27,975 nt of DNA from an uncultured Eubacteriales bacterium (GCA_902783795.1 CACZSO010000363.1:1-27975), one strand, 5' to 3'. Counted from the first letter of the stretch, positions 933 through 14,336 are shown. Translations and numbers: made by a program. Notes: generated from the sequence alone by a model not told the origin.

Positions 933-2702
933 TTACGAAAGGAAATCCGGCCGGATATCCGCCAGTTCTTTCTTTTCTCTCAGAAGCTCCATAAGTTCAT
1001 TCGGATCTGTACAGACATTGATCTTTCTGTCCAGGCTCTGGTTCCTGACCCTAAGGACAGCTTCCTTAAGGGCCTGGGCGTGTTCTTCTTCAGACAATGT
1101 ATCTGCGTAGGAGGAAGCAAACAGCTCCGACACTTCCCGGTACTGATCCGTATCGATAAAGTGATCCAGGACTTTGGCCGGATCCGGTTTTCCAGCTTCC
1201 AGCTGTTTGAACACGATATCGGCAGTCTCACGGCCCAGTCCTTCTGAAAAGTCATCAGAAGCCAGGATTTTGCTGATCTTGGCAAAGAGGGCCGGGTCAG
1301 TGCAGATATCCGTCAGGATCAGTTTTTCTGCCTCTTTCAGCCCATATTCAGCGGATCTCAGCTTTTTCACGCTGCTCTTCGGCCGGGTATTCTCTTCCGC
1401 CGCCGTCCTTAACGGTCCCTGGTTTCCGATAATGGAGATCTGCTCCTTTAGTACATTGTAGGAGATGCCATATAAGGAGGACACCGCCTCAGCATAGGTA
1501 TTTCTTTCGATCTCATTAGAGAACCCGGCGATCCGTCTGGCCGTTTCATTGAAGAATGCGGCCTTATCTTCCGGATCCGAAAAATCATAATCTTTTTTAA
1601 GCACCCGGATCTCAAACAGGAAGGAGTTCTCTGCCTTTTCGATGCGTTTCCGGTATTCTTCCGGCCCCAGCGCCCTTAAAAATTCATCCGGATCCTTATG
1701 GGGCGACATATTCAGCACCCGGATCTTAAGTCCTGCTTCTTTCAGCACCGGGATAGCCCGGATGGCCGCCTTCTGCCCGGCATCATCCGAATCAAAGGTC
1801 AATATCACTTCATCGGTATAACGCTTCAGCAACATGCCGTGCTGGGAAGTAAACGCTGTTCCTAAGGAGGCCACAGCATTCGTGAATCCATACTGGTGCA
1901 GGGTGATCACATCCATGTAGCCCTCGCAGACCAGCATATACTTTTCACGGCTGCGTCTGGCTGCGTTCAGTCCGTACAGGTTCCGGGATTTATCAAAGAT
2001 CCGGGTCTCCGGAGAATTTAAGTACTTCGGCTCACCGCTCCCCATGACCCGGCCGCCGAAGCCTATGACCCGGCTGTTGGCGTCCATGATAGGGAACATG
2101 ACCCGGTTCCAGAACTTATCTGTCACCCCTTTTTCCCGGAAAGTCACCAGGCCGGATTCCCTTAAGATCTCATCGCTGTACCCTTTTTGTTTCAGATACC
2201 GGTACAAAGTATCCGGCCGGCTGCCGGCATATCCTAGACCGAAGGAACGGATCATCTCATCACTGATGCCCCGCTTTCTTAAATAAGCAAGACCCGGGGC
2301 GCCTTCCGGCCTTTTCAGGGAATGGACGTAAAAGACCGCCGCATCCTTATGCATGGTCATAAGCTGGGTCCTGAGGTCCTTTTCTTTCTGTCTTTCCGGG
2401 GTGTATTCTTCCTCCGGAAGGGCGATGCCTGCCCGGTCCGCCAATGTTTTGACTGCCTCCTGGAAGGTGTAATTCTCATACTCCATAATGAAGGTCAATA
2501 CATTGCCGCCGGCTCCGCAGCCGAAACAGTAATACATCTGCTTCGAGGGCGAGACTGAAAAGGAGGGGGATTTTTCATTGTGGAAAGGGCACAGGCCGAA
2601 ATAGTTGGCGCCTTTTTTCTGCAGCTGCACATACTGCCCGATGACGTCCACCACCGGGTTCGCTGCCCTTACCTGTTCTATAATTTCATCAGAATAATAC
2701 AT
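933..2702 (-). CDS. dnaG: DNA primase
   Basis: Zinc-binding CPFHNEKSPSF...CFGC, KYLNSPET, TOPRIM EGYMDV and FDSDDAGQKA motifs; SD AGGAG upstream. Confidence 0.98.
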   Translation of the reverse strand: MYYSDEIIEQVRAANPVVDVIGQYVQLQKKGANYFGLCPFHNEKSPSFSVSPSKQMYYCFGCGAGGNVLTFIMEYENYTFQEAVKTLADRAGIALPEEEYTPERQKEKDLRTQLMTMHKDAAVFYVHSLKRPEGAPGLAYLRKRGISDEMIRSFGLGYAGSRPDTLYRYLKQKGYSDEILRESGLVTFREKGVTDKFWNRVMFPIMDANSRVIGFGGRVMGSGEPKYLNSPETRIFDKSRNLYGLNAARRSREKYMLVCEGYMDVITLHQYGFTNAVASLGTAFTSQHGMLLKRYTDEVILTFDSDDAGQKAAIRAIPVLKEAGLKIRVLNMSPHKDPDEFLRALGPEEYRKRIEKAENSFLFEIRVLKKDYDFSDPEDKAAFFNETARRIAGFSNEIERNTYAEAVSSLYGISYNVLKEQISIIGNQGPLRTAAEENTRPKSSVKKLRSAEYGLKEAEKLILTDICTDPALFAKISKILASDDFSEGLGRETADIVFKQLEAGKPDPAKVLDHFIDTDQYREVSELFASSYADTLSEEEHAQALKEAVLRVRNQSLDRKINVCTDPNELMELLREKKELADIRPDFLS

Positions 2703-2712
2703 CCTGTCTCCT

Positions 2713-3714
2713 TCAGGGAACGAATATCTCTGTATACTTCTGCACCGCGTACTGGTCTGTCATGCCGGAAAGATAATCTGCTGTCACGATCTCTGCCGGA
2801 TCTGTCTTAAGCCGTTTGAGATATGAGGCCGGGATCAGTTCCGGATGCTTCATATAATAATGAAATAAGGCTTTCAGCACATGTGTCGCTTTTTCTTTTT
2901 CCTTTTCAACGCTTTCTGAATAATAGACATGGTCGAACATAAAGGATCTGAGGCCGTAGACTGCCTCAAAGACTTCGTCAGACATGCGGATATCCTTAAG
3001 GCCGCTGCTGTTCTCGATCACATCATGCACCATACGGTTCAGCCTCTCTTTCACGGTATGGCCCAGCACTTCCGTATATTCCGAAGGAAGATCCTCATCC
3101 TTCAGAACACCGGCGCGGATGGCATCGTCAATGTCATGATTTACATAGGCGATCTTATCTGACAGCCGGACCACCCTGCCCTCCAATGTAAAAGGCATAT
3201 TCTCCGTGCCGTGGTTCAGAATGCCGTCCACTGTCTCTTTTGTCAGATTCAGGCCCATACCTTCTTTTTCCAGGACCTGCACCACACGGACAGACTGTTT
3301 CGCATGCTGGAAACCTTCGAGCCCGCACTCCTTTAATAGATCATCCAGCGCGTTTTCCCCTGCATGACCATAGGGTGTATGGCCCAGGTCATGGCCCAGG
3401 GCGATAGCCTCTGTCAGGTCCTCATTCAAAAGCAGGGCCTTGGCTATGGTCCTGGCGATCTGGGACACTTCCAGGGTATGGGTGAGCCTGGTCCTGTAAT
3501 GATCATCTTCAGGTTTTAAGAAGACCTGAGTCTTATTTTTCAGTCTCCGGAAGGATTTAGAATGAAGGATCCTGTCCCTGTCACGCTGGAAGCAGGTCCG
3601 GACATCACAGGGTTCTTCTTCCCTGTCCCTTCCCAGGGATCTGTCCGAATGGGAAGCATAAGGACTTAAGTCCCGGTATTCTCTTTCCTCCATCATTTCG
3701 CGAATGGTACTCAT
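2713..3714 (-). CDS. dgt: Deoxyguanosinetriphosphate triphosphohydrolase-like HD-domain protein
   Basis: FQRDRDRILHSKSFRRLKNKTQVF, YRTRLTHTLEV, GHDLGHTPYGHAGE, DKIAYVNHDIDD, DYLSGMTDQYA; SD AGGAG. Confidence 0.93.
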   Translation of the reverse strand: MSTIREMMEEREYRDLSPYASHSDRSLGRDREEEPCDVRTCFQRDRDRILHSKSFRRLKNKTQVFLKPEDDHYRTRLTHTLEVSQIARTIAKALLLNEDLTEAIALGHDLGHTPYGHAGENALDDLLKECGLEGFQHAKQSVRVVQVLEKEGMGLNLTKETVDGILNHGTENMPFTLEGRVVRLSDKIAYVNHDIDDAIRAGVLKDEDLPSEYTEVLGHTVKERLNRMVHDVIENSSGLKDIRMSDEVFEAVYGLRSFMFDHVYYSESVEKEKEKATHVLKALFHYYMKHPELIPASYLKRLKTDPAEIVTADYLSGMTDQYAVQKYTEIFVP

Positions 3715-3759
3715 TTTCAGGTCTCCTAAAAAAACTGCAGTTTAAACCTTTACCTTTCT

Positions 3760-3765
3760 ATTATA
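3760..3765 (-). promoter_or_regulatory. Candidate -10 element for the dgt-dnaG-trmK transcript
   Basis: TATAAT on the minus strand about 45 nt upstream of the dgt start; no good -35 found. Confidence 0.4.
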
Positions 3766-3942
3766 CTTCAAAAGCCTCAGAAATGACACAGGAAATTATG
3801 AAATAAAAGTGAATTTCTTATGGCTTGACCTCTGAAAGCCTGAGAAAGGCTCTCAGCCTGGTCTGAAGCCTGCATCAAGGGATAGAGCTCGGTATGATTG
3901 GGCAGTTTTCACAATAAATTCATATTTATTCCCGATATTTTA

Positions 3943-3971
3943 TTGCTTTTCAGATAACATTGTGCTATGAT
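3943..3971 (+). promoter_or_regulatory. sigA-type promoter of hpf with extended -10
   Basis: TTGCTT (3943-3948), 17-bp spacer, TGc-TATGAT (3966-3971). Confidence 0.7.
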
Positions 3972-4022
3972 TTAAGCAGCCGGAGTATAGCTAAATAACT
4001 CCGGGGAAAAGGAGTGTGAACG

Positions 4023-4562
4023 ATGGAATATAAGATCACCGGAAAGAACATTGACGTAACAGATGATCTGAGAGCTTATGTTGAAAAAAGGTTTGCCAAG
4101 TTCAGCAAGTTCTTTAGTGACGACACGGAGATCCATGTGTCGCTCTCCAAGACCAAAAAAAATAAAAAAGTGGAAGTCACCATTCCCATGAAAGGCACCA
4201 CTATCCGCGCGGAAGAAACAAATACAGATATGTATACTGCCATTGACAACCTTCAGGAAGTCGTTGAGCGCCAGCTGAAGAAAAACCGTAAAAAACTTAT
4301 TGACCGTTATCAGAATGCGCCATCATTTTCATCTTTCTTTACCGAGGATCAAAGCGACTGGGATGTCGAGGAAGATGAAGCCATAAAGATCGTGAAGTCA
4401 AAGAAATTCGCGATCAAACCGATGGATCCGGAGGAAGCCTGCTTCCAGATGGATATGCTGGGACATAATTTCTATGTTTTCTATAATTCGGAAACAGACC
4501 TGGTAAGTGTGGTCTACCGAAGAAAAGACGGCTACTACGGACTCATCGAGCCTGAATATTGA
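4023..4562 (+). CDS. hpf: Ribosome hibernation promoting factor, long form (RaiA/HPF)
   Basis: ITGKNIDVTDDLRAYVEKRFAK...DMYTAID...LERQLKK-like N-terminal domain and C-terminal KKFAIKPMDPEEACFQMDMLGHNFYVF domain; SD AAGGAG. Confidence 0.95.
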   Translation: MEYKITGKNIDVTDDLRAYVEKRFAKFSKFFSDDTEIHVSLSKTKKNKKVEVTIPMKGTTIRAEETNTDMYTAIDNLQEVVERQLKKNRKKLIDRYQNAPSFSSFFTEDQSDWDVEEDEAIKIVKSKKFAIKPMDPEEACFQMDMLGHNFYVFYNSETDLVSVVYRRKDGYYGLIEPEY

Positions 4563-4590
4563 TCAGGCAGGAACAATATAATTTAAAAAG

Positions 4591-4619
4591 GCGGCGCCCC
4601 GGAGTTTCCGGGGCGCTGT
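4591..4619. terminator. Bidirectional intrinsic terminator between convergent hpf and DHHW genes
   Basis: GCGCCCCGGA-GTT-TCCGGGGCGC stem, with AAAAA on the left and TGTTCT on the right. Confidence 0.8.
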
Positions 4620-4629
4620 TCTGTCTGTT

Positions 4630-6156
4630 TTATTCACTTTTTGTGGTCCCTGCTTCTTCCAATGTTTCAGAAGCTTCCTGAAGCGCCGGAGGCTGGCAGA
4701 TGGACTTCATCACATTCATGGTATTCGTATCTGAAATAGCTTCCAGGTTATTGATGAAAATGATATCATCTATACCCTCTTCTTCTGCCAGGGCAATGAT
4801 GCTTTCCTTGTAGCCACGATAATCGATGACGATCACCTTATCATAATAATCCGCAAGGAAGGGTATAAAGGTATTGCCGAAGGATTCCTTCACCACCATA
4901 CAGGACCGGCCTGTTCCCAGCTCCGCATTTCTGATATACTCGATGGGACAGTCGCCGTAGATAAATGCCTGATACTTCTGGGTAGGCGCTACAGAAGAAA
5001 GGTCACGGACGATCTTTCCCTGCCTCCATCTGCCCTGAGAGGTATCATAGAACTCAAACTGGTTCGTAGTCAGGGGTTCATACGCATATACGGTATCCGG
5101 GTTGTTCTTAAGCTGCGAGTAACCATTGGAGGAATAATAGGACCCCAGGAAGTTCTCCATGACGATTTCCGTATATTCGCTGATCTCATGGGCTTCCCAG
5201 CCCTTTTCCTTCAGGAATTCCAAAAGCGTATAATAAGCGCCCAGCTGCGTCCAGTGATGGTCTGTCTTAAAATACAGATATTCTGTATTATGACTGATCA
5301 AAGCATCCAGGATGGGGATGCAGACCACCTTATCATCCAGGGACATGATATAATTATAAAAGTACTTGATAGCCTTATCCTCATTGGAAAGACGCCATTC
5401 TTTTTTTGTCCCTTCATCTAAAAGAACTGCAGAGTTATTCGGGATCAGGATGTCGTAGACCTGGGTGTCCGGAAGCAGTTTCTGTGTCTCTGCCACAGTC
5501 TCACTGTAGATATTAGCGGCTTTCAGGTTAAAGCCATAAACACAGTAGCCCACCATATCCTTCAGATTAACATTGCCGGCTTCCTGAGGATTCATCCGGT
5601 AAAGCTCATCGCCGTCCACATATTCTGTGGTACGAGGCTCTTTCGTAGTCTCAGCTGTCTCTGAAGATCCTTCATCAGTGGAAACGCTCTCCGTCACATC
5701 GGTTGAGATTTCAGACGATGGGGTCTCCGCCGATGCTGTTTCCTTCGTCTGAGATGGCTCCGCATTATCCGGGACTGAGGCTTCATCCGGTGTTGAAGGC
5801 GCTGACGGGAAGTCAGGGATATCGTCACCTTCCGCCATATTTTCCACGGCGTCCGCATTCAGGCCGTATAAAGTCTTTACTGACCGGTCAGCCATGATCA
5901 GAGTATCACGGTAGGGGAACGTATCTGAATACCAGGTGCTGATGCCGTCTGTATAGCCTCCCTCGATCAGTGAATCCCAGGAAAATTTCGGGAACTTCTC
6001 CAGATCCCGCTTTTCATATTCGGATACAGCAGGCCGGAACGGCAGCATAAAACCCAGGATGCAGCCCGTGATCATGACAGCAGCAAACAGCATACAAGTA
6101 ATGACCTTGTACGTCCGGTTCTTCTCTTCTGTTTTATTTCCGTTGTAATTATCCAT
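4630..6156 (-). CDS. DHHW-family membrane-anchored O-acetyltransferase (AlgJ/AlgX/PatB1-like SGNH-type)
   Basis: N-terminal TM helix, EKRDLEKFP motif, S/T/E-rich linker, LYFKTDHHWTQLGAY, VVKESFGNTFIPFL and VIDYR; lies 10 nt downstream of the MBOAT gene. Confidence 0.85.
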   Translation of the reverse strand: MDNYNGNKTEEKNRTYKVITCMLFAAVMITGCILGFMLPFRPAVSEYEKRDLEKFPKFSWDSLIEGGYTDGISTWYSDTFPYRDTLIMADRSVKTLYGLNADAVENMAEGDDIPDFPSAPSTPDEASVPDNAEPSQTKETASAETPSSEISTDVTESVSTDEGSSETAETTKEPRTTEYVDGDELYRMNPQEAGNVNLKDMVGYCVYGFNLKAANIYSETVAETQKLLPDTQVYDILIPNNSAVLLDEGTKKEWRLSNEDKAIKYFYNYIMSLDDKVVCIPILDALISHNTEYLYFKTDHHWTQLGAYYTLLEFLKEKGWEAHEISEYTEIVMENFLGSYYSSNGYSQLKNNPDTVYAYEPLTTNQFEFYDTSQGRWRQGKIVRDLSSVAPTQKYQAFIYGDCPIEYIRNAELGTGRSCMVVKESFGNTFIPFLADYYDKVIVIDYRGYKESIIALAEEEGIDDIIFINNLEAISDTNTMNVMKSICQPPALQEASETLEEAGTTKSE

Positions 6157-6165
6157 AGGAACCTC

Positions 6166-7605
6166 TTAAAACCTGAAGTATAAAAACGGATTATAGCTGT
6201 TGCCTACCAGTGCAAGCACCGAAAGGATCACTAACAAAGCAGGGGTAAAGGCATCAATGATATTGACCATGTGCAGAAGGATGCCGTCATGTTTATCTGC
6301 CGCTTTATGCAAGACTGCCTCGATGACCTTCCCCAGGGGGAAGCAGGCGATGATAGCCAGCGCCAGGAAAAACACCTTATTTAAAAGCGCTGATTCTGTC
6401 TCGATGCCATACAGGGCATGGCCGGAGAAACACAGCCCCTTCACTGTTTCAAATACATTATTAATATCCGTAAAGCGGAACAGGACCCAGCCGAAATAGA
6501 CCACGATCAATGTATATACATGACCGATGATCCTCGTAAACAGGTTCTTTTCCAGCAGTTTCGAAAGGAACAGCCGTTCCAGGGTGAGGAAAATGAAAAA
6601 GTACAGACCCCAGAGAATGAAGTTCCAGGAAGCGCCATGCCACATACCCGTCAGGAACCAGACGATGAGCATATTGAAAATAGTCCTGCCGGTGCCTTTC
6701 CGGCTGCCGCCCAGGGGGATATAAACATAGTCACGGAAGAACGTAGACAGGGAAATATGCCACTTCCGCCAGAAACCCTGGACCGTATGGGCTGAATAAG
6801 GATAGTCAAAGTTTTCCAGATAATGGAAACCGACCATGCGTCCCATGCCGATGGCCATATCTGAGTAAGCAGAGAAGTCCAGATAGATCTGGAGCATATA
6901 AGCCAGCATACCCAGCCACATGGACAAAGAAGAAACATTGACCAATGCCCCGGCGGCTTCCGGCAGCAGTTTGTCGGCAATATCCGCGCATCCGTTAGCC
7001 AGGATGGCTTTCTTCGCAAGTCCTACCGAAAAACGGCGCACACCTTCTGTCACATCATTAAGGGTGATCTTCCTGTCTTCGATCTCCGCCGCCACTGTCT
7101 GATACCGGACGATGGGACCGGCAATACACTGATGGAACAGGGAGGCATACAGAAGCACCTTCCAGTAAGCCGGCTGGGCCTCCACGTCGCCGCGGTAGAC
7201 ATCGATCACATAAGAGATCAGCTGGAAGGTATAGAAAGAGATGCCGATGGGCAGGATGATCTGGGGCACCGTCTCCGGCCAGCCGGTAAAGAACCGGATA
7301 TTATCCAGGAAAAAGCCCAGGTATTTAAACACGCCAAGAAGGCTGAGCATGAAGACAAGCTCCACGATCAGCCATCTTTTTTTCATTTCAGGAAATGCTG
7401 TTTTGCCGATCCTCTTAGCGGTAAACCAGCTGACAAAAGCTTCCCCGACCAGAAGGATCACAAATTTCGGGCCGCCGAAAGCATAGAATATCAGCGAGAA
7501 AAATAACAGGATGATATTCCGGGCTTTCGTATTTCTTATCAGGAAGTAAAGTGCAAGCTGAGGAACCAGAAACGCAAACACAAACAGGAGACTGGAAAAA
7601 ACCAT
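6166..7605 (-). CDS. MBOAT-family O-acyltransferase (AlgI/PatA/DltB-like)
   Basis: MVFSSLLF, LPIGISFYTFQLISY, IAGPIVRY, YLDFSAYSDMAIG, ENFDYPY, FWRKWHISLSTFFRDYVYIPLGG, catalytic-His region TGMWHG, C-terminal NPFLYFRF. Confidence 0.95.
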   Translation of the reverse strand: MVFSSLLFVFAFLVPQLALYFLIRNTKARNIILLFFSLIFYAFGGPKFVILLVGEAFVSWFTAKRIGKTAFPEMKKRWLIVELVFMLSLLGVFKYLGFFLDNIRFFTGWPETVPQIILPIGISFYTFQLISYVIDVYRGDVEAQPAYWKVLLYASLFHQCIAGPIVRYQTVAAEIEDRKITLNDVTEGVRRFSVGLAKKAILANGCADIADKLLPEAAGALVNVSSLSMWLGMLAYMLQIYLDFSAYSDMAIGMGRMVGFHYLENFDYPYSAHTVQGFWRKWHISLSTFFRDYVYIPLGGSRKGTGRTIFNMLIVWFLTGMWHGASWNFILWGLYFFIFLTLERLFLSKLLEKNLFTRIIGHVYTLIVVYFGWVLFRFTDINNVFETVKGLCFSGHALYGIETESALLNKVFFLALAIIACFPLGKVIEAVLHKAADKHDGILLHMVNIIDAFTPALLVILSVLALVGNSYNPFLYFRF

Positions 7606-7632
7606 GTTGTTCCTCTGTAGTCGAATTATCGT

Positions 7633-7679
7633 AAAAATGATTCCCGGCGTTTCTTATGCTGCCAGCGAAGCGCCGGGAA
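7633..7679 (-). terminator. Intrinsic terminator/attenuator between the second NlpC/P60 gene and the MBOAT gene
   Basis: Perfect 9-bp inverted repeat TTCCCGGCG / CGCCGGGAA (7641-7649, 7671-7679) followed on the minus strand by TCATTTTT; long 21-nt loop. Confidence 0.6.
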
Positions 7680-7686
7680 AAGATCA

Positions 7687-9012
7687 TCAGTAAAGTCTTC
7701 TGACCGCTATGATGGGGGCAATGTACAGGCTTCCGAAGGAAACTCTCTTGCCGGGACTGGGGGCATGGACGATTACACCGTTGCCGTAATAAATGGCTAC
7801 ATGGCCGTTATAGCAGACCATATCGCCCGGCTGGATGTTCTCCAGCGCCACTGCATATCCTAAGGACCGCAGGGTCGTGGAATCATAAGCATGAGAATTC
7901 GCCGCATACTGATCGATCAGGCCAAAGTGTGCATAGACCTGGGATACAAAGCCGCTGCAGTCAGCGCCATACTGAAGGCTGGCACAGCCCCAGGCATATG
8001 GCAGTACATTGACGTACTGGGCTGCAAAGTTCGGGATCTGGTATGTCATAGATGCCCGGTAAGCCCGTTCCGCTGCTTCTGCTGCTTCCCGCTCTTCCCG
8101 TTCCTTACGCTCTGCTTCTTCTCTGGCTTCTCTGGCCTTCCGCTCCGCTTCTTCCGCCATCTGCTGGTTAAACTCATCAAATGAGGTATCAGACTCGTGG
8201 GAAAGACGCTCACGGTTCAGCTCTATCGTCCATACCTGGTTGCGGATAATGGACGATGTTTCCGCCAGGTTATACTGGTCACAGATGTCTGAAAGGTAGC
8301 TGTAGTTTTCCAGTGCATAGACCAGGACCGTATACATACCTAAGTAGGAGCCGGATTCCTGTGCGTTCGGGAAAGCTTCTTTCAGCACGTAATTCACTTC
8401 TGCGGCATAATTCTTAAAGCGCTGTTTTGCTTCGTCAGGCAGGGAGGCGAAATCCTCACCCCACTTGACAGCTTCCGGAATAGGCGTGTTATCCCTGTAT
8501 TCTTCATGGACCAGCTGCTTAAAGGCAGCCGCCTCATCACCGAATACCACATATTTGCCCATGATGTAGCCTTCCATCCCGTTGATATAGACCTTATACC
8601 AAAGGGTACTGTTGGATATGCGCTCACCGATGACATAGATCTCCATGCCGCGGTATTCATGAGCCACCACATCCGACAGCATGGTGGAAGACGCCCTGAC
8701 GTTCAGGGAGGATTCTACATTCACAACGCCGATCACCCGTTTTTCATACAGGGTCTCCACATCTGCCTCCGGGGCATCTGTACCGTTATCGATCCTGTAT
8801 TTATCTGCATTCTCCTTGATAGGAGAAAGCCGGTTCATCAGCTGTTCGGCTGCATCCGGATTCGCTTCAAAATAGCGTCTTAAGGCCAGGGAGGCTCCGC
8901 CGAAAGCGGTCCTGGCGTCAATATTGTCAAAAGAAGTCGCCCGGGAAGCCAGGCTTCCCAGCGCGACTGTCATGAAAACGATAAATATTAAAGCTATCAG
9001 CTTCTTCTTCAT
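7687..9012 (-). CDS. Secreted SH3b + coiled-coil + NlpC/P60 (C40) peptidoglycan endopeptidase, paralog B
   Basis: Signal peptide MKKKLIALIF..., SH3b-like SLNVRAS...WYKVYINGMEGYI, E/R/A-rich coil, C40 domain LPYAWG...DCSGFV...GDMVCYNGHVAIY...IVHA with intact Cys-His-His. Confidence 0.9.
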   Translation of the reverse strand: MKKKLIALIFIVFMTVALGSLASRATSFDNIDARTAFGGASLALRRYFEANPDAAEQLMNRLSPIKENADKYRIDNGTDAPEADVETLYEKRVIGVVNVESSLNVRASSTMLSDVVAHEYRGMEIYVIGERISNSTLWYKVYINGMEGYIMGKYVVFGDEAAAFKQLVHEEYRDNTPIPEAVKWGEDFASLPDEAKQRFKNYAAEVNYVLKEAFPNAQESGSYLGMYTVLVYALENYSYLSDICDQYNLAETSSIIRNQVWTIELNRERLSHESDTSFDEFNQQMAEEAERKAREAREEAERKEREEREAAEAAERAYRASMTYQIPNFAAQYVNVLPYAWGCASLQYGADCSGFVSQVYAHFGLIDQYAANSHAYDSTTLRSLGYAVALENIQPGDMVCYNGHVAIYYGNGVIVHAPSPGKRVSFGSLYIAPIIAVRRLY

Positions 9013-9111
9013 ATAACATCTTTACGCCCCATGACCTGTGCTTTTTCTGCCGCAAGACAAGGCAGCTTTAGTACTGCTATAATAAAGAACAGAAAAAGTT
9101 CATCAGGGGTT

Positions 9112-10998
9112 TCAGTAAAGTCTCCTTACTGTAATAATTCTGTCGAAGTTTACATAACCGATCTCGACAGTTCTTCCTGCTGCGGCTTCATGGATCACAC
9201 GGTGATTACCGGCTGCATCCACGCCCCAGTAGATCGCGACATGGCCTTCATAACAGATCATATCGCCAGGCTGCATATCAGCTACGCCGACTGCTGCGCC
9301 TATGCCCCTTAAGGAGCCTGAGTAATAATTGCCATGGTTCGCAGCCCAAGCCTGTGAGACCAGGCCGCATCTGGCATAGATCAGCATGGCAAAACCGGAG
9401 CAGTCACATCCAGACTCCAGGCTGGTCCCGCCCCATACATAGGGCAGCCATCCGGTAAAAGGTTCCGCCTGTGCAACGATAGCCAGGCCGGCTGCATTAT
9501 AATTCATGCCTTCTTTACGAGGCGGTACGACCATTACAGAAGCACACTGTGCAGCAAGGGCGGCATTAGCCTGGGCATTTTCAGCTTCCTGGCGGGCGGC
9601 CTCTTCTTCCGCTCTCCTGTCCGCTGCTTCCTGTTCCGCCTGCTGTGCGGCAGCTTCTAATTCTTCAGCCCTTCTGGCTGCATCATCGGCCCCGCCATTT
9701 TCCGGAACAGCCGGTTCAGTTTCAGCCTGCTGTGCTGCTTCCTGTTCCGCTGCTAAAGAAGCGGCGATCTCCTGCTGTCTTCTTTCTTCCTCTGCCTGCC
9801 TTCTGGCTTCTTCTTCCCGGCGGGCTCTTTCTTCAGCTTCCAGTCTAGCCTGTTCAGCTTCCTGGCGCCTTCTTTCTGCTTCCTGTTCAGCGGCTATACG
9901 TTCTGCTTCTGCCTGTCTTCTGGCGGCTTCAGCTTCTGCGGCCTCCTGCTCCAGACGGCGGTTTTCTTCATCGATCTTAGCCTGGGCTTCTGCATTGATC
10001 TCTGCGAACATTTCAGCCTCAGACCGGCCGCTCATGGCGCTTAAGGAAGCCCTGGTCTCATTGACCTGTGCCAAAGCATTAGATGCAGCAGCCTTTGTCG
10101 CGCTTAATCCCTGCTCAGAAGCAATATCGATCACCCGCTGCAGGCAGTCACAGACGTAGACCACCACTGAGAACAGACGAGTGGGATTATTTTCAGCCTG
10201 TACTGCAGCATAGGTGTCACCCAGGCAGTAACGGACTTCTGCCGCATAATAAAGCAGCATATCGGCCACATCACCGGAAACAGCATTCAGATCCTGTCCG
10301 GGGATGGCAAAATCTTTCGGAAGGCCGCTGGCCTGAGGTACCGTCTCTTCCGGAGTCTGCGTGGTTTCAGGCACTGTAGTTGCCGGTACAGTCTCTTCCG
10401 CCGATGTTTCGGCTTCAGTCTCACTGATGCTCTCAGCAGTTTCTTCTAAGGAAGACGGCTGGGTCTCTTCAGCTTCTGACGAAGCTTCCGTTTCCTTCTC
10501 ATCTTCTGCTTCCTCCGGATCCTTGCTGAGTTCGATGAAATCAGACAGTGCATAACCGGTCTCGCCATACAGAGTGACCTTATACCAGAGACGTCCGCCG
10601 GTGGTCCTTTCACCTATAACAGCAAGTTCAGACATATCGCCGGTCACGGCTACCACATCAGACATGGTAGTGGGCAAGGCGCGGATATTCAGAGAATAAT
10701 CCACATGGACCAGGCCAGTCTTTGTCTCCTTATACAGGATTTCTCCTTCGGCTTCAGCCGGATCAACAGCGCCTTTATCTCTGAAGACCGCTGTATTTTC
10801 CACCGTAGGAAGGAGCATCTTCAGGACATTCGCCGCATCTTTATTATTTTCGAGATAACGGGAAAGCGCCACCGATGCACCGGCTACAGCTGTCTTGGAA
10901 TCCAGCTCATCATAGGTAAATGCTGCCGGTGAAGAAGTACCGAAAAGTACTGCCGCGATAAGTAATGCAATTGTCTGCTTAAAGTATTTTTTCATCAT
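9112..10998 (-). CDS. Secreted SH3b + long coiled-coil + NlpC/P60 (C40) peptidoglycan endopeptidase, paralog A
   Basis: Signal peptide MMKKYFKQTIALL... (likely start ATG 10998 or 10995; the ORF track uses TTG 11016), SH3b SLNIRA...WYKVTLYGETGY, T/E/S-rich linker, QEAE/EAERR coil, LPYVWGG...DCSGF...GDMICYEGHVAIY...VIHE. Confidence 0.9.
   Translation of the reverse strand: MMKKYFKQTIALLIAAVLFGTSSPAAFTYDELDSKTAVAGASVALSRYLENNKDAANVLKMLLPTVENTAVFRDKGAVDPAEAEGEILYKETKTGLVHVDYSLNIRALPTTMSDVVAVTGDMSELAVIGERTTGGRLWYKVTLYGETGYALSDFIELSKDPEEAEDEKETEASSEAEETQPSSLEETAESISETEAETSAEETVPATTVPETTQTPEETVPQASGLPKDFAIPGQDLNAVSGDVADMLLYYAAEVRYCLGDTYAAVQAENNPTRLFSVVVYVCDCLQRVIDIASEQGLSATKAAASNALAQVNETRASLSAMSGRSEAEMFAEINAEAQAKIDEENRRLEQEAAEAEAARRQAEAERIAAEQEAERRRQEAEQARLEAEERARREEEARRQAEEERRQQEIAASLAAEQEAAQQAETEPAVPENGGADDAARRAEELEAAAQQAEQEAADRRAEEEAARQEAENAQANAALAAQCASVMVVPPRKEGMNYNAAGLAIVAQAEPFTGWLPYVWGGTSLESGCDCSGFAMLIYARCGLVSQAWAANHGNYYSGSLRGIGAAVGVADMQPGDMICYEGHVAIYWGVDAAGNHRVIHEAAAGRTVEIGYVNFDRIITVRRLY
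9590..9960 (-). repeat. Low-complexity imperfect repeats encoding an E/A/R/Q-rich coiled coil
   Basis: Recurring DNA unit GCTTCCTGTTC(C/A)GC and protein repeats such as AEQEA, RRQAEAE and RRQEAE. Confidence 0.7.
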
Positions 10999-11029
10999 TC
11001 CCACTTTATTACTCAAAGGTTTAATAATT

Positions 11030-11046
11030 GTTACAAATTTATTACA
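11030..11046 (-). promoter_or_regulatory. WalR/OmpR-type direct-repeat box 1
   Basis: Minus strand TGTAAT-AAATT-TGTAAC, an exact match to the WalR consensus TGTWAH-N5-TGTWAH, at or just after the predicted transcription start of paralog A. Confidence 0.6.
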
Positions 11047-11053
11047 CCTCTGT

Positions 11054-11081
11054 ATTATAACACATCTTTTCAGTTTGTCAA
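11054..11081 (-). promoter_or_regulatory. Consensus sigA promoter of the NlpC/P60 cluster
   Basis: TTGACA (11081-11076), 16-bp spacer, TGt-TATAAT (11059-11054). Confidence 0.85.
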
Positions 11082-11253
11082 TGCTGTTCTCGAAAATAAT
11101 AGCATTAAATTGTTAAAAAATTTTGAACGAAGAATGAATCTGCCATATTTCTTAAAAATCTAAAAAAGTCTTGTTTTATGCGGTTTTCAGATGATATTTT
11201 CTTCATTATCTGCTTCATTTCCAGGGTAATATTTGTCCTGTTTTTTTCATCTT

Positions 11254-11270
11254 ATAACATTTTTGTAACA
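11254..11270 (-). promoter_or_regulatory. WalR/OmpR-type direct-repeat box 2
   Basis: Minus strand TGTTAC-AAAAA-TGTTAT, an exact match to TGTWAH-N5-TGTWAH; ends about 10 bp upstream of the -35 of the divergent SDR promoter. Confidence 0.55.
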
Positions 11271-11279
11271 TTTTCAGGC

Positions 11280-11308
11280 TTTACTTAAGGAAATTCTTTT
11301 CTTATAAT
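11280..11308 (+). promoter_or_regulatory. sigA-type promoter of the SDR gene
   Basis: TTTACT (11280-11285), 17-bp spacer, TATAAT (11303-11308). Confidence 0.65.
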
Positions 11309-11372
11309 AAAAAAGAAAAACGGACAGAGTTCTTAACAAATAAGCCCTCTGGCAGATGAAAGGAATAGATCT

Positions 11373-12077
11373 ATGAACCGAAAAGTGATCATAACCGGTG
11401 CTTCCGGAGGCATCGGTCTGGCCATTGCAAAAAAACTGTACAACGAACAGGACCGGATCATCGCCTGCTGTTTCCGTCATCCGGAAAAACTCCGGGACTT
11501 ACCCGGCATCACCCTGTTTACAGGGGATCTTTCCCGGGAAGATGAGGTCAGGCGTCTCTTTTCTCTGGCAGAAAAGGAATTTGCTGTTCCCGATGTGCTG
11601 ATCAATGCCGCCGGCATCGCTGACATCCGGCTTTTCCAGGATTCTGATGATGATAACCTGCTTCGAGTTATGAACACAGACCTTCTGTCCTGTATCCGCT
11701 GTTCAAAAGAGGCTGCCCGGCTGATGCTTAAAAAGAAGCGGGGAAGGATCCTGAATCTATCTTCTGTCTGGGGTTCTTTCGGTGCTTCCTGTGAAGTGGA
11801 ATATTCTGCAGCCAAAGGCGGCATCGAAGCCTTTACCAAGGCTCTGGCCAAGGAACTGGCCCCCTCTCACATCCAGGTCAATGCTCTCTCTTTAGGCGCC
11901 ATCGATACGGCTATGAATGACCTGTTGGATGAAGAAGAAAAGCAGGTACTTATATCAGAGATCCCGGCAGGCCGTATGGGAAAGGCAGAAGAAGTGGCCG
12001 AAATGGTCTCCCTTCTTATCAGTGCGCCGGAATACCTGACCGGGGCTGTCATTAAATTTGACGGCGGATGGATGTGA
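11373..12077 (+). CDS. Short-chain dehydrogenase/reductase, FabG-like (YmfI/EF-P 5-aminopentanone reductase-like)
   Basis: TGASGGIG, INAAGI, SSVWGSFGASCEVEYSAAKGG (YxxxK), GAIDTAMN, DGGWM. The SSxWG..GASCEV motif recalls the YmfI clade. Confidence 0.85.
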   Translation: MNRKVIITGASGGIGLAIAKKLYNEQDRIIACCFRHPEKLRDLPGITLFTGDLSREDEVRRLFSLAEKEFAVPDVLINAAGIADIRLFQDSDDDNLLRVMNTDLLSCIRCSKEAARLMLKKKRGRILNLSSVWGSFGASCEVEYSAAKGGIEAFTKALAKELAPSHIQVNALSLGAIDTAMNDLLDEEEKQVLISEIPAGRMGKAEEVAEMVSLLISAPEYLTGAVIKFDGGWM

Positions 12078-13563: not shown

Positions 13564-14292
13564 TCATTTGAAAATGATCGCTACTTTCTTACCGCCTGCA
13601 GAGTTGATGCAGTTCAGGTCTTTCGTATAAACGGCCCCTTTGGAATAAGCCACGACCTTGCCTTCTCCATACAGCACTGCCTTGATATCACAGATCATAT
13701 AACGGTAGGAACCGCCCTTGCTCTCTCCGGTCCAGCCGCTGATATCCACGGCTTTTCCTGAAGGATCCACGAATTCCATAGAAGAAAGGGCGCTGTCAGG
13801 CGACAGAAGCGTCCCGGCTTTCAGAATGCTTCCGGACCGTTTCTGCAGCTCCGACTTATTATATTCCAGGAAGTCTGCCGCATCATAATATTTCAGGATC
13901 TGGGTCAGGACATTTTTAGAGACTGAGCACGTCTCCACTTCAATGGCATTGACCTTTTTTCCCTTTTCATCAGGATAGGGATGGGCAGCATTATATTCTG
14001 CCAGCTCTTCCTCCAGAAATCCTTCATATTCTTTCGCATCATACTTCGATGTATCGAAATCATACAAAGTGCAGTCCCTGATCTCCAGTTTAGAGGTCAG
14101 GTAGATGCCGTTCGTTGTATTTCCGAAAGTATCCACTTCCGGTTCTGTTTCTCTTCTGGAATCCTTGCTGGTGCCGGAGGAATCCTGACTGCTGATACCG
14201 GGTTCTGTATCAGAACCTTCCGGTTCTTTTCCGCAGGCCGCCACGAGGACCAGCCCAAGGATAAGAAAAACAGTGATCATAACTTTTTTCAT
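13564..14292 (-). CDS. Hypothetical lipoprotein
   Basis: MKKVMITVFLILGLVLVAA-C lipobox followed by an S/E/G-rich tether. Likely start ATG 14292 with SD GGGAG. No recognisable catalytic motif. Confidence 0.8.
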   Translation of the reverse strand: MKKVMITVFLILGLVLVAACGKEPEGSDTEPGISSQDSSGTSKDSRRETEPEVDTFGNTTNGIYLTSKLEIRDCTLYDFDTSKYDAKEYEGFLEEELAEYNAAHPYPDEKGKKVNAIEVETCSVSKNVLTQILKYYDAADFLEYNKSELQKRSGSILKAGTLLSPDSALSSMEFVDPSGKAVDISGWTGESKGGSYRYMICDIKAVLYGEGKVVAYSKGAVYTKDLNCINSAGGKKVAIIFK

Positions 14293-14336
14293 AACCAAAC
14301 TCCCGTCTATAGATTAGATAGTCTATACAAAACTTC

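What the first reader, a model, noticed from the sequence alone, without database searches (positions are those of the whole stretch)
4630..11270. Candidate cell-wall module: tandem NlpC/P60 autolysins linked to an MBOAT/DHHW O-acetylation pair
Seen: four co-oriented genes (hydrolase A, hydrolase B, MBOAT, DHHW) downstream of a consensus promoter carrying WalR-type boxes. Known: MBOAT+SGNH/DHHW pairs (AlgI/AlgJ, PatA/PatB, Bacillus cereus-group PatA1/PatB1) O-acetylate envelope polymers, and wall O-acetylation modulates autolysins. Inference: a co-regulated cut-and-protect unit in which wall acetylation is tied to endopeptidase expression. I am not aware of this arrangement being characterised in Clostridia.
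Basis: partly seen in the sequence, partly recalled or inferred. Interest (0 to 1): 0.7.

Follow-up and report, generated by a model that had tools for sequence, protein, structure and literature searches.

The report
Wall hydrolases joined to acetyltransferase pair
In one uncultured rumen/gut Lachnospiraceae genus, two secreted cell-wall-cutting enzymes and a two-protein wall O-acetylation machine lie in one gene cluster behind a single regulated promoter; the parts are ordinary, and the link between them is real but confined to this genus and untested for function.

Summary
Four minus-strand genes lie where stated: two paralogous secreted SH3b/helical/NlpC-P60 endopeptidases, an MBOAT and a DHHW (PatB1-type) transferase. 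They follow a 12/12 consensus promoter. The window's only two exact TGTWAH-N5-TGTWAH boxes flank that promoter. A strong terminator comes only after the DHHW gene.

The four-gene order is kept in at least 13 of 16 other species of the same genus. The HydB-MBOAT gap is only 14-32 bp in seven species. The promoter and boxes are footprinted across the genus. One metatranscriptome contig bridges the HydB/MBOAT junction.

The link does not extend further. Among the 80 closest MBOAT relatives in a 185,579-species collection, MBOAT-DHHW adjacency is near-universal (79/80). An NlpC/P60 neighbour occurs only in the nine loci of this genus. Free-standing pairs carry no such boxes. Two sister species have a terminator and a promoter between the hydrolases and the pair, and one species lacks the pair there. 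Flanking unrelated genes are equally syntenic.

Best reading: a mobile acetyltransferase cassette was captured once behind a WalR-type-controlled hydrolase operon. The acetylated polymer and any effect on the hydrolases are unknown. This is a new variant of known kinds, of moderate interest.

The parts
11254..11270 (-). Upstream WalR-type direct repeat, TGTTAC-AAAAA-TGTTAT. It lies about 175 bp upstream of the -35 of the hydrolase promoter. It also lies 10 bp upstream of a 10/12 promoter-like site (11280-11308, + strand) facing the divergent SDR gene.
   Evidence: Exact match. Relatives carry an equivalent box 30-60 bp upstream of their -35. Promoter scan.
11054..11081 (-). Sigma-70-type promoter: TTGACA, 16-nt spacer with TG extension, TATAAT.
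   Evidence: 12 of 12. TTGACAAA plus TATAAT/TATACT is conserved upstream of HydA orthologues in 10 species of the genus. An RNA-library contig ends at 11026, and no contig was laid on 11028-11500 (weak).
11030..11046 (-). WalR-type direct repeat TGTAAT-AAATT-TGTAAC, starting 8 bp after the -10 hexamer, about +1 to +17 of the predicted transcript. This is an operator position.
   Evidence: Exact match. The same position is kept in relatives: identical in G125, TGTAAC-N5-TGTAAC in G126 and G132, and one half-site degenerate in G123, G133 and G122.
9112..10998 (-). HydA, a secreted peptidoglycan endopeptidase. It has a signal peptide, a conserved N-terminal segment, an SH3b domain, an acidic linker, a helical domain, a long Glu/Ala/Arg coiled coil and an NlpC/P60 domain. 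The ORF could also start at TTG 11016.
   Evidence: Catalytic C539, H592 and H609 in P0001 numbering.
9013..9111 (-). HydA-HydB spacer with a long hairpin (-32 kcal/mol, z -2.6) and no U-tract after it.
   Evidence: No RNA contig bridges this junction.
7687..9012 (-). HydB, a paralogue of HydA. It has the same architecture but a short coiled coil.
   Evidence: Catalytic C352, H404 and H416. AF2 model pLDDT 85. The NlpC/P60 domain aligns to 8er5, 6b8c and 8i2d at TM about 0.8.
7633..7688 (-). Terminator-like hairpin in the HydB-MBOAT spacer: an 8-bp GC stem followed by AAUCAUUUUU. It is probably a leaky terminator or attenuator. No promoter match was found in the 81-bp spacer.
   Evidence: A 514-nt RNA-library contig reads through it, 7397-7910.
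6166..7605 (-). MBOAT acyltransferase of AlgI/PatA type, with at least 8 hydrophobic spans, His283 and His323, and a C-terminal FLYFRF acyl-shuttle motif.
   Evidence: The motif is defined in PMC12148441.
4630..6156 (-). DHHW-family SGNH-like O-acetyltransferase of PatB1 type. It has an N-terminal membrane anchor, a Ser/Thr/Glu/Pro-rich linker and a catalytic domain.
   Evidence: DHHW at 299-302, Ser425 in ESF, and D445-x-R447-x-Y449.
4594..4616 (.). Bidirectional intrinsic terminator shared with the convergent hpf gene. It ends the unit.
   Evidence: A 10-bp, 9-GC stem; the fold has z -3.75.

Best explanation
This is a lineage-specific four-gene envelope unit. The promoter at 11081-11054 drives two secreted DL-endopeptidase-type NlpC/P60 hydrolases, HydA and HydB. 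Each is targeted to the wall by an SH3b domain and carries a helical/coiled-coil module ahead of the catalytic domain. Transcription reads on, probably attenuated at the 7633-7688 hairpin, into an MBOAT-DHHW pair. That pair should work by the general MBOAT-SGNH mechanism. The MBOAT takes acetyl from cytoplasmic acetyl-CoA onto Tyr476 of its C-terminal FLYFRF tail. The tail hands the acetyl to Ser425 of the membrane-anchored extracellular DHHW enzyme, which esterifies a hydroxyl of a wall glycan. An OmpR-family regulator that recognises WalR-type direct repeats sits on the transcript start, a repressing position, and on a second upstream site. That ties the unit to the same signal as at least two other wall genes in this genome. 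The pair is a self-contained, horizontally mobile cassette. It was captured once, downstream of the hydrolase tandem, in the ancestor of this genus. Shown here: gene identities and catalytic motifs, the promoter and boxes and their conservation, the genus-restricted linkage, the compact junctions in most species, and one bridging RNA contig. Inferred: the regulator's identity, the direction of regulation, the degree of read-through, the acetylated polymer, and any effect of acetylation on HydA or HydB.
For: Catalytic motifs:
- The NlpC/P60 Cys-His-His triads are invariant in 21 orthologues.
- The DHHW gene has Block V DHHW, the Block I Ser and the Block II DxRxY, aligned to B. cereus PatB1 (PMC9487903).
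- The MBOAT has its conserved His residues and a C-terminal FxYxxF motif that is invariant in 15 orthologues (PMC12148441).

Promoter and boxes:
- The promoter scores 12/12.
- The two boxes are significant on the window background and on local composition.
- The promoter and both box positions are kept across species whose surrounding sequence has diverged.
- Genome-wide there are only 11 exact boxes. The intergenic clusters lie upstream of HydA, GlmM and an SH3b-SLT lytic transglycosylase.

Linkage:
- The four-gene order holds in at least 13 of 16 other species of the genus.
- The HydB-MBOAT gap is 14-32 bp in 7 species.
- The genus MBOATs form one clade.
- One RNA-library contig spans 7397-7910 at 99.4% identity.
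- A strong terminator follows only the DHHW gene.

Mobile cassette:
- The pair is adjacent in 79 of 80 loci across Lachnospiraceae, Oscillospiraceae, Erysipelotrichaceae and Eggerthellaceae, with no recurrent neighbour.

Precedent:
- In C. difficile, WalRK controls an NlpC/P60 gene that has two upstream box matches. It also controls wall-modification genes, including dltDABC (PMC9210968).
Against: - Outside the genus the pair is never next to an NlpC/P60 gene: 0 of 71 loci and 0 of about 10 genera sampled.
- Free-standing pairs carry no box enrichment upstream: 0 exact of 67.
- Within the genus, the unrelated flanking genes are equally syntenic.
- G126 and G132 have a terminator plus a TTGACT-17-TATACT promoter between HydB and the MBOAT gene.
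- G122 keeps the hydrolases but has an AMP-binding/aminotransferase gene where the pair would be.
- The window's own junction has a terminator-like hairpin.
- RNA contigs cannot prove a single transcript and may include DNA carry-over. None bridges HydA and HydB.
- No response regulator or kinase in this 88%-complete genome reaches the NCBIfam WalR or WalK cut-offs.
Confidence: 0.55

Rival explanations
1. The adjacency is incidental. A mobile MBOAT-DHHW cassette landed downstream of the hydrolase tandem and was inherited with the rest of a syntenic housekeeping region. It acetylates a polymer unrelated to HydA or HydB, and co-transcription is a neutral by-product of its position.
For: The cassette is free-standing in variable contexts in 71 of 71 loci outside the genus. 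It has no boxes when it stands alone. Flanking SDR and hpf are equally conserved. It has its own terminator and promoter in G126 and G132 and is absent in G122. The window carries a terminator-like hairpin.
Against: In seven species the gap is squeezed to 14-32 bp with no room for a promoter, so there the pair depends on transcription coming from the hydrolase side. All parts act on the same compartment. The arrangement has been retained while the DHHW protein diverged to 45-66% identity.
Confidence: 0.3
2. This is a targeting model rather than a protection model. The O-acetyl mark on a wall glycan creates or tunes the ligand for the SH3b or helical modules of HydA and HydB. Co-expression would then control where the hydrolases are retained, as loss of PatA1/PatA2 acetylation releases the autolysin BslO from B. 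anthracis.
For: Both hydrolases have an SH3b wall-binding domain and a conserved helical domain of unknown function. B. anthracis patA1/patA2 mutants fail to retain BslO and BslA (PMC7759979). PatB1 is the closest characterised relative of the DHHW protein.
Against: The B. anthracis proteins bind by SLH domains, which are absent here. In vitro binding of SLH proteins did not depend on the O-acetyl group. There is no evidence on the ligand of these SH3b domains.
Confidence: 0.1
3. The boxes belong to an OmpR-family regulator other than a WalR orthologue, for example a PhoP- or MtrA-like protein. The unit would then answer to a signal other than wall-growth homeostasis.
For: No regulator passes the YycF/WalR cut-off: the best scores 193 bits against 340, and RpaB, PhoB, VanR and MtrA models score higher. 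No kinase passes the WalK cut-off: 216 bits against 725. From my own knowledge, the reverse complement of the box resembles Bacillus PhoP repeats (TTHACA-N5-TTHACA).
Against: The other intergenic box clusters sit at an SH3b-SLT hydrolase gene and at glmM, which is typical WalR-type regulon content. The WalK model is the top NCBIfam hit of the C16 kinase. C. difficile WalK is also non-canonical.
Confidence: 0.2

Closest known systems
Bacillus cereus/anthracis PatA1-PatB1 (MBOAT plus DHHW-family SCWP O-acetyltransferase)
   Same: It is the same two-protein design and the same Pfam families. The DHHW, Ser and DxRxY catalytic blocks align to PatB1 (5V8D, E 9e-11). The MBOAT has the C-terminal FxYxxF tail. 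That system also has a functional link to an autolysin, through BslO retention and chain length.
   Different: The substrate here is unknown, and no SLH proteins or pyruvylated SCWP genes are in the window. The closest solved relative is the uncharacterised Eubacterium siraeum 4NZK (8e-28), not PatB1. Here the pair lies in one cluster with NlpC/P60 genes.
Gram-negative O-acetylpeptidoglycan cluster patA-patB-ape1
   Same: An MBOAT-SGNH pair is genetically linked to a peptidoglycan-active hydrolase, and the acyl-Tyr shuttle mechanism is shared (PMC12148441).
   Different: PatB belongs to a different SGNH family (DUF459), not DHHW. The linked enzyme there is an O-acetyl esterase, not an endopeptidase. 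The organisms are Gram-negative.
Clostridial CcsH-CcsI (MBOAT/DHHW in the cellulose synthase locus)
   Same: It is an MBOAT/DHHW pair in Clostridia, embedded in an operon with a hydrolase (CcsZ) (PMC7710045).
   Different: There is no cellulose synthase (ccsA/ccsB) or GH5 gene here. The partners are peptidoglycan endopeptidases.
WalR-controlled coiled-coil hydrolases (B. subtilis CwlO, S. pneumoniae PcsB, M. tuberculosis RipC)
   Same: A secreted enzyme with a long helical/coiled-coil region ahead of a C-terminal NlpC/P60 or CHAP domain. TGTWAH-N5-TGTWAH boxes lie at the promoter. Foldseek lists CwlO, RipC (in FtsEX/RipC) and Cg1735 among the matches.
   Different: An SH3b domain and a distinct helical domain of about 95 aa are present. 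One box sits at +1, a repressing position, rather than only upstream of the -35. No FtsEX genes lie in the window, and I did not search the genome for them.
C. difficile WalRK regulon (CD630_27680 NlpC/P60; dltDABC)
   Same: A clostridial NlpC/P60 gene has two WalR-box matches and is repressed when Wal is on. An MBOAT-dependent wall modification (Dlt) is under the same regulator (PMC9210968).
   Different: In C. difficile the hydrolase and the MBOAT system are separate loci. Here they are fused into one unit.

Membership tests
Bacterial polymer-acylating MBOAT (AlgI/PatA/DltB type) | MBOAT profile match above the curated cut-off | tested here: met
   PF03062 at 100.1 bits against a cut-off of 27. 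DltB structures 8jem and 6bug match at E 3e-21.
Bacterial polymer-acylating MBOAT (AlgI/PatA/DltB type) | Universally conserved catalytic His | tested here: met
   His283 (WHISL) and His323 (MWHGA) are present. I assigned them by motif, not by structure superposition.
Bacterial polymer-acylating MBOAT (AlgI/PatA/DltB type) | C-terminal FxYxxF acyl-shuttle hexapeptide fused to the MBOAT (non-Dlt systems) | tested here: met
   The protein ends in FLYFRF (474-479). NPFLYF[QR]F is invariant in 15 orthologues. The motif is defined in PMC12148441.
Bacterial polymer-acylating MBOAT (AlgI/PatA/DltB type) | Adjacent SGNH-type partner | tested here: met
   The DHHW gene starts 10 bp downstream. The two are adjacent in 79 of 80 related loci.
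Dlt D-alanylation system | DltA, DltC, DltD and DltX partners | tested here: not met
   TIGR04091 (DltB) scores 131 bits against a cut-off of 375. The partner is DHHW, not DltD, and there are no dltA/dltC genes in the window.
DHHW family (PatB1-type O-acetyltransferase) | Profile match above the cut-off over the full length | tested here: met
   PF14286 at 294 bits against a cut-off of 25, covering positions 1-385 of 385.
DHHW family (PatB1-type O-acetyltransferase) | Block V DHHW, Block I nucleophilic Ser, Block II DxRY oxyanion Arg | tested here: met
   DHHW at 299-302, Ser425 and D445-Y-R447-G-Y, aligned to PatB1 KDSF and DLRHY (blocks as in PMC9487903).
DHHW family (PatB1-type O-acetyltransferase) | Acetyl transfer to a secondary cell wall polysaccharide | not testable with these tools
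   The substrate is unknown, and no polysaccharide genes recur next to the cassette.
NlpC/P60 peptidoglycan endopeptidases | Profile match and papain-like Cys-His-polar triad | tested here: met
   PF00877 at 42.9 and 50.5 bits against a cut-off of 23. D-C-S and G-H-V are invariant in 21 sequences. The fold matches 8er5, 6b8c and 8i2d at TMt about 0.8.
NlpC/P60 peptidoglycan endopeptidases | Export and wall targeting | tested here: met
   There is an N-terminal hydrophobic signal segment. SH3_3 matches in HydA, and SH3b structures 2kyb and 2kt8 match HydB.
WalR (YycF/VicR) regulon | TGTWAH-N5-TGTWAH direct repeat at the promoter | tested here: met
   Two exact boxes, conserved in position across the genus.
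WalR (YycF/VicR) regulon | Cognate WalR/WalK encoded in the genome | tested here: inconclusive
   No protein reaches the NCBIfam cut-offs. The best kinase (C16) has HK_WalK as its top hit at 216 bits against 725, and its regulator is cut by the contig end. The genome is 88% complete.
WalR (YycF/VicR) regulon | Regulator binding and regulation | not testable with these tools
   This needs EMSA or a reporter assay.
O-acetylpeptidoglycan (OAP) cluster patA-patB-ape1 | PatB of the DUF459 SGNH family and an Ape1 esterase | tested here: not met
   The partner is DHHW, not DUF459. No esterase gene lies in the cluster.

The most novel reading that the evidence does not exclude
In this genus, whose genome shows no OatA-type AT3-SGNH fusion, the DHHW pair O-acetylates peptidoglycan itself. 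Its capture into a WalR-type-controlled endopeptidase operon would then make peptidoglycan O-acetylation part of the growth-coupled hydrolase programme. That would be the first peptidoglycan-directed DHHW enzyme and a Gram-positive counterpart of PatAB. A cassette that moves between Firmicutes and Actinobacteria with no polysaccharide genes attached is easier to explain if its substrate is universal.
Probability: 0.15. Interest if true: 0.65.

Novelty: new variant of a known kind. Interest (0 to 1): 0.4.

Why it matters
MBOAT-SGNH pairs are a general route for decorating bacterial envelopes, and only one DHHW-family enzyme (PatB1) has been characterised biochemically (PMC9487903). Here a DHHW pair is placed under the promoter of two wall endopeptidases. 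That gives a natural, genus-wide experiment on whether wall O-acetylation is coordinated with wall cleavage in gut Clostridia. Within the genus there are built-in comparators: species with fused, attenuated, separate and missing pairs. The conserved boxes also give a first handle on a WalR-like wall regulon in uncultured rumen Lachnospiraceae. The practical limits are that the organisms are known only as MAGs and that the substrate is unknown.

Tried and rejected
- Context as a guide to the substrate. I clustered all neighbours of 80 related loci and found no recurrent family beyond the pair itself; the apparent large clusters were shadow ORFs overlapping the pair. Upstream genes in other genera are unrelated: an M24 peptidase, LysR, an ABC ATPase and HicB.
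- Identifying WalRK. The kinase on C373 looked WalK-like over its full length, but it is an orphan next to a T2SSE ATPase and a Germane-domain protein. No regulator passed the YycF cut-off.
- RNA evidence for the HydA/HydB junction and for the middle of the MBOAT and DHHW genes. No contigs were laid there in four metatranscriptomes. This says nothing either way.
- RNA contigs ending at 7639-7664 might hint at an internal 5' end. I rejected this as evidence because Logan contigs break at low depth and at polymorphisms.
- An internal promoter in the window's HydB-MBOAT spacer. No match was found.
- The order of events from a tree. The basal branching within the genus is unresolved, so I cannot tell whether the own-promoter state of G126 and G132 is ancestral or derived.
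- Foldseek on the HydB model gave no clear match for the helical domain, and I did not pursue it.
- Reading the MBOAT gene as DltB. I rejected this (membership test).


Full report
**What is there**

The window is contig C363 of a 375-contig, 88%-complete MAG. The region is housekeeping: trmK, dnaG, a dGTPase-like HD protein, hpf, then the cluster, then an SDR, GlyRS, recO, era and dnaE.

Between the convergent hpf (4023-4562, +) and the divergent SDR (11373-12077, +) lie four minus-strand ORFs.
- HydA (9112-11016 as an ORF) has a signal-type hydrophobic N-terminus, an SH3_3 domain (1.3e-6) and a C-terminal NlpC/P60 domain (5.4e-11).
- HydB (7687-9012) has NlpC/P60 at 2.2e-13.
- The third gene is an MBOAT (PF03062, 1.9e-28).
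- The fourth is a full-length DHHW protein (PF14286, 1.9e-87).

HydA and HydB are paralogues. They are 40% identical over the N-terminal 155 residues and 47% over the catalytic domain. From the alignment of 21 orthologues and the position of the ribosome-binding site, HydA most likely starts at ATG 10998 or 10995, not at TTG 11016.

**The enzymes look competent**

In both hydrolases the D-C-S and G-H-V motifs are invariant across 21 sequences from the genus. The third triad residue is His in this window's HydA and HydB, and Asn in some HydB orthologues. The residues are C539/H592/H609 in HydA and C352/H404/H416 in HydB.

An AlphaFold2 model of HydB (mean pLDDT 85) shows three modules:
- a beta-rich SH3b module (86-151);
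- five long helices (158-331);
- a compact catalytic domain.

The catalytic domain superposes on solved peptidoglycan endopeptidases: C. innocuum CI_01448, E. faecium SagA and B. subtilis LytE and CwlO, at TM 0.7-0.8 normalised by target.

The DHHW protein has an N-terminal membrane anchor (15-44) and a Ser/Thr/Glu/Pro-rich linker. It carries the three sequence blocks that define PatB1-type transferases: DHHW at 299-302, Ser425 in ESF and D445-x-R447-x-Y. These align directly to B. cereus PatB1 (5V8D, 9e-11). They align better still to the uncharacterised Eubacterium siraeum protein 4NZK (8e-28) (the blocks are described in PMC9487903).

The MBOAT has at least eight hydrophobic spans and the conserved His residues. 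Its very last six residues are FLYFRF. This is the FxYxxF acyl-shuttle motif. Its Tyr was shown in C. jejuni PatA to be auto-acetylated from acetyl-CoA and to donate the acetyl to the SGNH partner (PMC12148441). NPFLYF[QR]F is invariant in 15 orthologues. It is not a Dlt system: the DltB model scores 131 bits against a cut-off of 375, and no dltA, dltC or dltD gene is present.

**Signals**

The only 12/12 sigma-70 match in 4000-11500 is TTGACA-16-TATAAT at 11081-11054, with a TG extension.

The window's only two exact matches to TGTWAH-N5-TGTWAH lie in the 356-bp spacer upstream of HydA. The expectation is 0.05 per window. None of 20,000 simulations of that AT-rich spacer gave two.
- One box (11030-11046) starts 8 bp after the -10 hexamer, on the predicted transcript start.
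- The other (11254-11270) is about 175 bp upstream of the -35. It lies just upstream of a promoter-like site facing the SDR gene.

The HydA-HydB spacer folds into a long hairpin with no U-tract. The HydB-MBOAT spacer has an 8-bp GC stem followed by AAUCAUUUUU, which is terminator-like but imperfect. The only strong terminator follows the DHHW gene.

**Regulator**

The promoter and both box positions are footprinted in the genus.
- TGTAAT-AAATT-TGTAAC is identical in G125.
- TGTAAC-N5-TGTAAC occupies the same place in G126 and G132.
- One half-site is degenerate in G123, G133 and G122.
- Every species examined has a box 30-60 bp upstream of the -35, while the sequence between the sites has diverged.

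Genome-wide there are only 11 exact boxes. The intergenic ones cluster upstream of HydA, upstream of glmM (three overlapping), upstream of an SH3b-SLT lytic transglycosylase, and in a palindrome upstream of a GH32 gene. That is the content expected of a wall-homeostasis regulon.

It also matches C. difficile. There WalRK controls an NlpC/P60 gene with two box matches, which is repressed when Wal is on, as well as pgdA, asnB and dltDABC (PMC9210968).

I could not identify the regulator. Only five OmpR-family regulators were found, and none reaches the YycF cut-off. The best kinase (on C16, with its regulator cut by the contig end) has WalK as its top NCBIfam hit but at 216 bits against 725. 'WalR-type' is therefore a statement about the motif.

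**Is the linkage conserved?**

Within the genus, yes. The genus consists of uncultured Lachnospiraceae MAGs from sheep rumen, goat omasum and other animal gut samples.

HydB- and DHHW-type genes lie on one contig at constant spacing in 13 of 16 other species. The remaining three comprise two genomes that are 54-59% complete, and G122. Gene-by-gene inspection of 12 loci shows the order SDR <> HydA-HydB-MBOAT-DHHW >< hpf.

Three facts limit what this means.
1. The unrelated flanking genes are just as conserved, so this is general synteny.
2. The junction is not uniform:
 - 14-32 bp in seven species, which forces co-transcription;
 - 82-109 bp with hairpins in the window and in G129;
 - 273-303 bp in the sister species G126 and G132, containing a terminator and a TTGACT-17-TATACT promoter and no box;
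 - in G122 the hydrolases are followed by a 1039-aa AMP-binding/aminotransferase protein instead.
3. Outside the genus the link disappears.
 - In a sample of 120 genera of the family, about ten carry an orthologous pair (36-59% identity), and none has an NlpC/P60 gene beside it.
 - Their NlpC/P60 genes lie on other contigs.
 - Among the 80 best MBOAT relatives in the 185,579-species collection, the DHHW gene follows the MBOAT gene in 79. An NlpC/P60 gene precedes it only in the nine loci of this genus.
 - The other 71 loci come from Lachnospiraceae, Oscillospiraceae, Erysipelotrichaceae and Eggerthellaceae/Coriobacteriaceae MAGs at 52-64% MBOAT identity. They have no recurrent neighbour and no enrichment of boxes upstream (0 exact of 67).

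The genus MBOATs form one clade. The simplest history is a single capture of a mobile two-gene cassette behind the hydrolase tandem.

**Expression**

Four animal-gut metatranscriptomes from one study hold near-identical sequence. Their contigs cover most of HydA (9262-11026), parts of HydB, the 5' part of the MBOAT gene and the 3' end of the DHHW gene.

One 514-nt contig with 3 mismatches spans 7397-7910, across the HydB-MBOAT spacer and its hairpin. One contig ends at 11026, and none was laid on the spacer upstream. That fits the predicted start near 11047.

These are assembled contigs from RNA libraries. They show presence and bridging. They do not show strand, level or a single transcript.

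**Mechanism proposed**

An OmpR-family regulator gates a strong promoter. Two secreted endopeptidases are made. Read-through, probably damped at the 7633-7688 hairpin, yields the MBOAT and DHHW proteins. These move acetyl from acetyl-CoA through Tyr476 and Ser425 to a wall glycan.

The glycan is not known. Two points lean weakly towards peptidoglycan. The three AT3-family proteins of the genome are only 354-429 aa, with no OatA-type SGNH fusion. And the cassette moves across phyla with no polysaccharide genes attached.

The genome's other two MBOAT pairs belong to a different four-gene module, DUF4358-MBOAT-AlgX/DHHW-like-GDSL.

Whether the acetyl mark restrains, directs or ignores HydA and HydB is open. 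From my own knowledge, known effects of O-acetylation concern lysozymes, lytic transglycosylases and glucosaminidases. They also include retention of the B. anthracis autolysin BslO. None concern DL-endopeptidases.

**Verdict**

The parts are new members of well-known families, and MBOAT/DHHW pairs are already described in Clostridia (CcsH/CcsI). What is new is the arrangement: an acetyltransferase cassette placed under a WalR-type-controlled endopeptidase promoter, fixed in one uncultured genus. It comes with natural variants (fused, attenuated, separate, absent) that would make the coupling testable.

I score interest at 0.4.

Noticed in passing
G000 contigs C113:3796-3897 (L045) and C91:2380-2430 (L047): Clusters of exact or near-exact TGTWAH-N5-TGTWAH boxes lie directly upstream of glmM (phosphoglucosamine mutase) and of a 584-aa SH3b-SLT lytic transglycosylase. 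Together with HydA they outline a candidate wall regulon in this MAG.
   Followed up: partly
G000 contigs C318 (L135:2303-6486) and C83 (L136:5830-10188): There are two further MBOAT systems of a different build: DUF4358, then MBOAT, then an AlgX/DHHW-like protein, then a GDSL lipase domain (fused to the DHHW-like protein on C83). The same DUF4358 or GDSL neighbours appear beside MBOAT pairs in two other genera (L028, L029).
   Followed up: partly
L058-L129 (search for related loci): The MBOAT-DHHW cassette occurs at 52-61% MBOAT identity in MAGs labelled Eggerthellaceae/Coriobacteriaceae, Erysipelotrichaceae and Oscillospiraceae, always as a free-standing pair. This suggests cross-phylum transfer. 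Some labels (for example a Bifidobacterium bin) may be binning errors. Several Eggerthellaceae loci carry two DHHW genes in tandem.
   Followed up: no
L040 (G122:C11) 2614-5733: In one species of the genus the two hydrolase genes are followed by a 1039-aa AMP-binding plus class I/II aminotransferase fusion protein instead of the MBOAT-DHHW pair. No DHHW orthologue was found in that 81%-complete genome at E 1e-30.
   Followed up: partly
window 8150-8500 and 9700-10275 (HydB residues about 185-290 and the equivalent part of HydA): A helical domain of about 95 residues, conserved in all 21 hydrolase orthologues (motifs YAxxINYCL and YSVLxYLLE), has no Pfam match and no clear Foldseek match. Outside the genus only one full-architecture relative was seen (G002:C6, 28% identity).
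   Followed up: partly
window 9708: RNA-library contigs from two samples carry a 15-nt in-frame deletion in the coiled-coil region of HydA. The coiled coil also varies greatly in length between species.
   Followed up: no
window 13564-14298 (-): A 244-aa ORF between the glycyl-tRNA synthetase gene and recO has no Pfam match.
   Followed up: no
G000:C136:1940-1990 (L046): Two overlapping box matches lie inside a long perfect palindrome (GGGGTCAGACCCC ... GGGGTCTGACCCC) upstream of a GH32 sucrose/fructan hydrolase gene. This is probably the operator of a different regulator.
   Followed up: no
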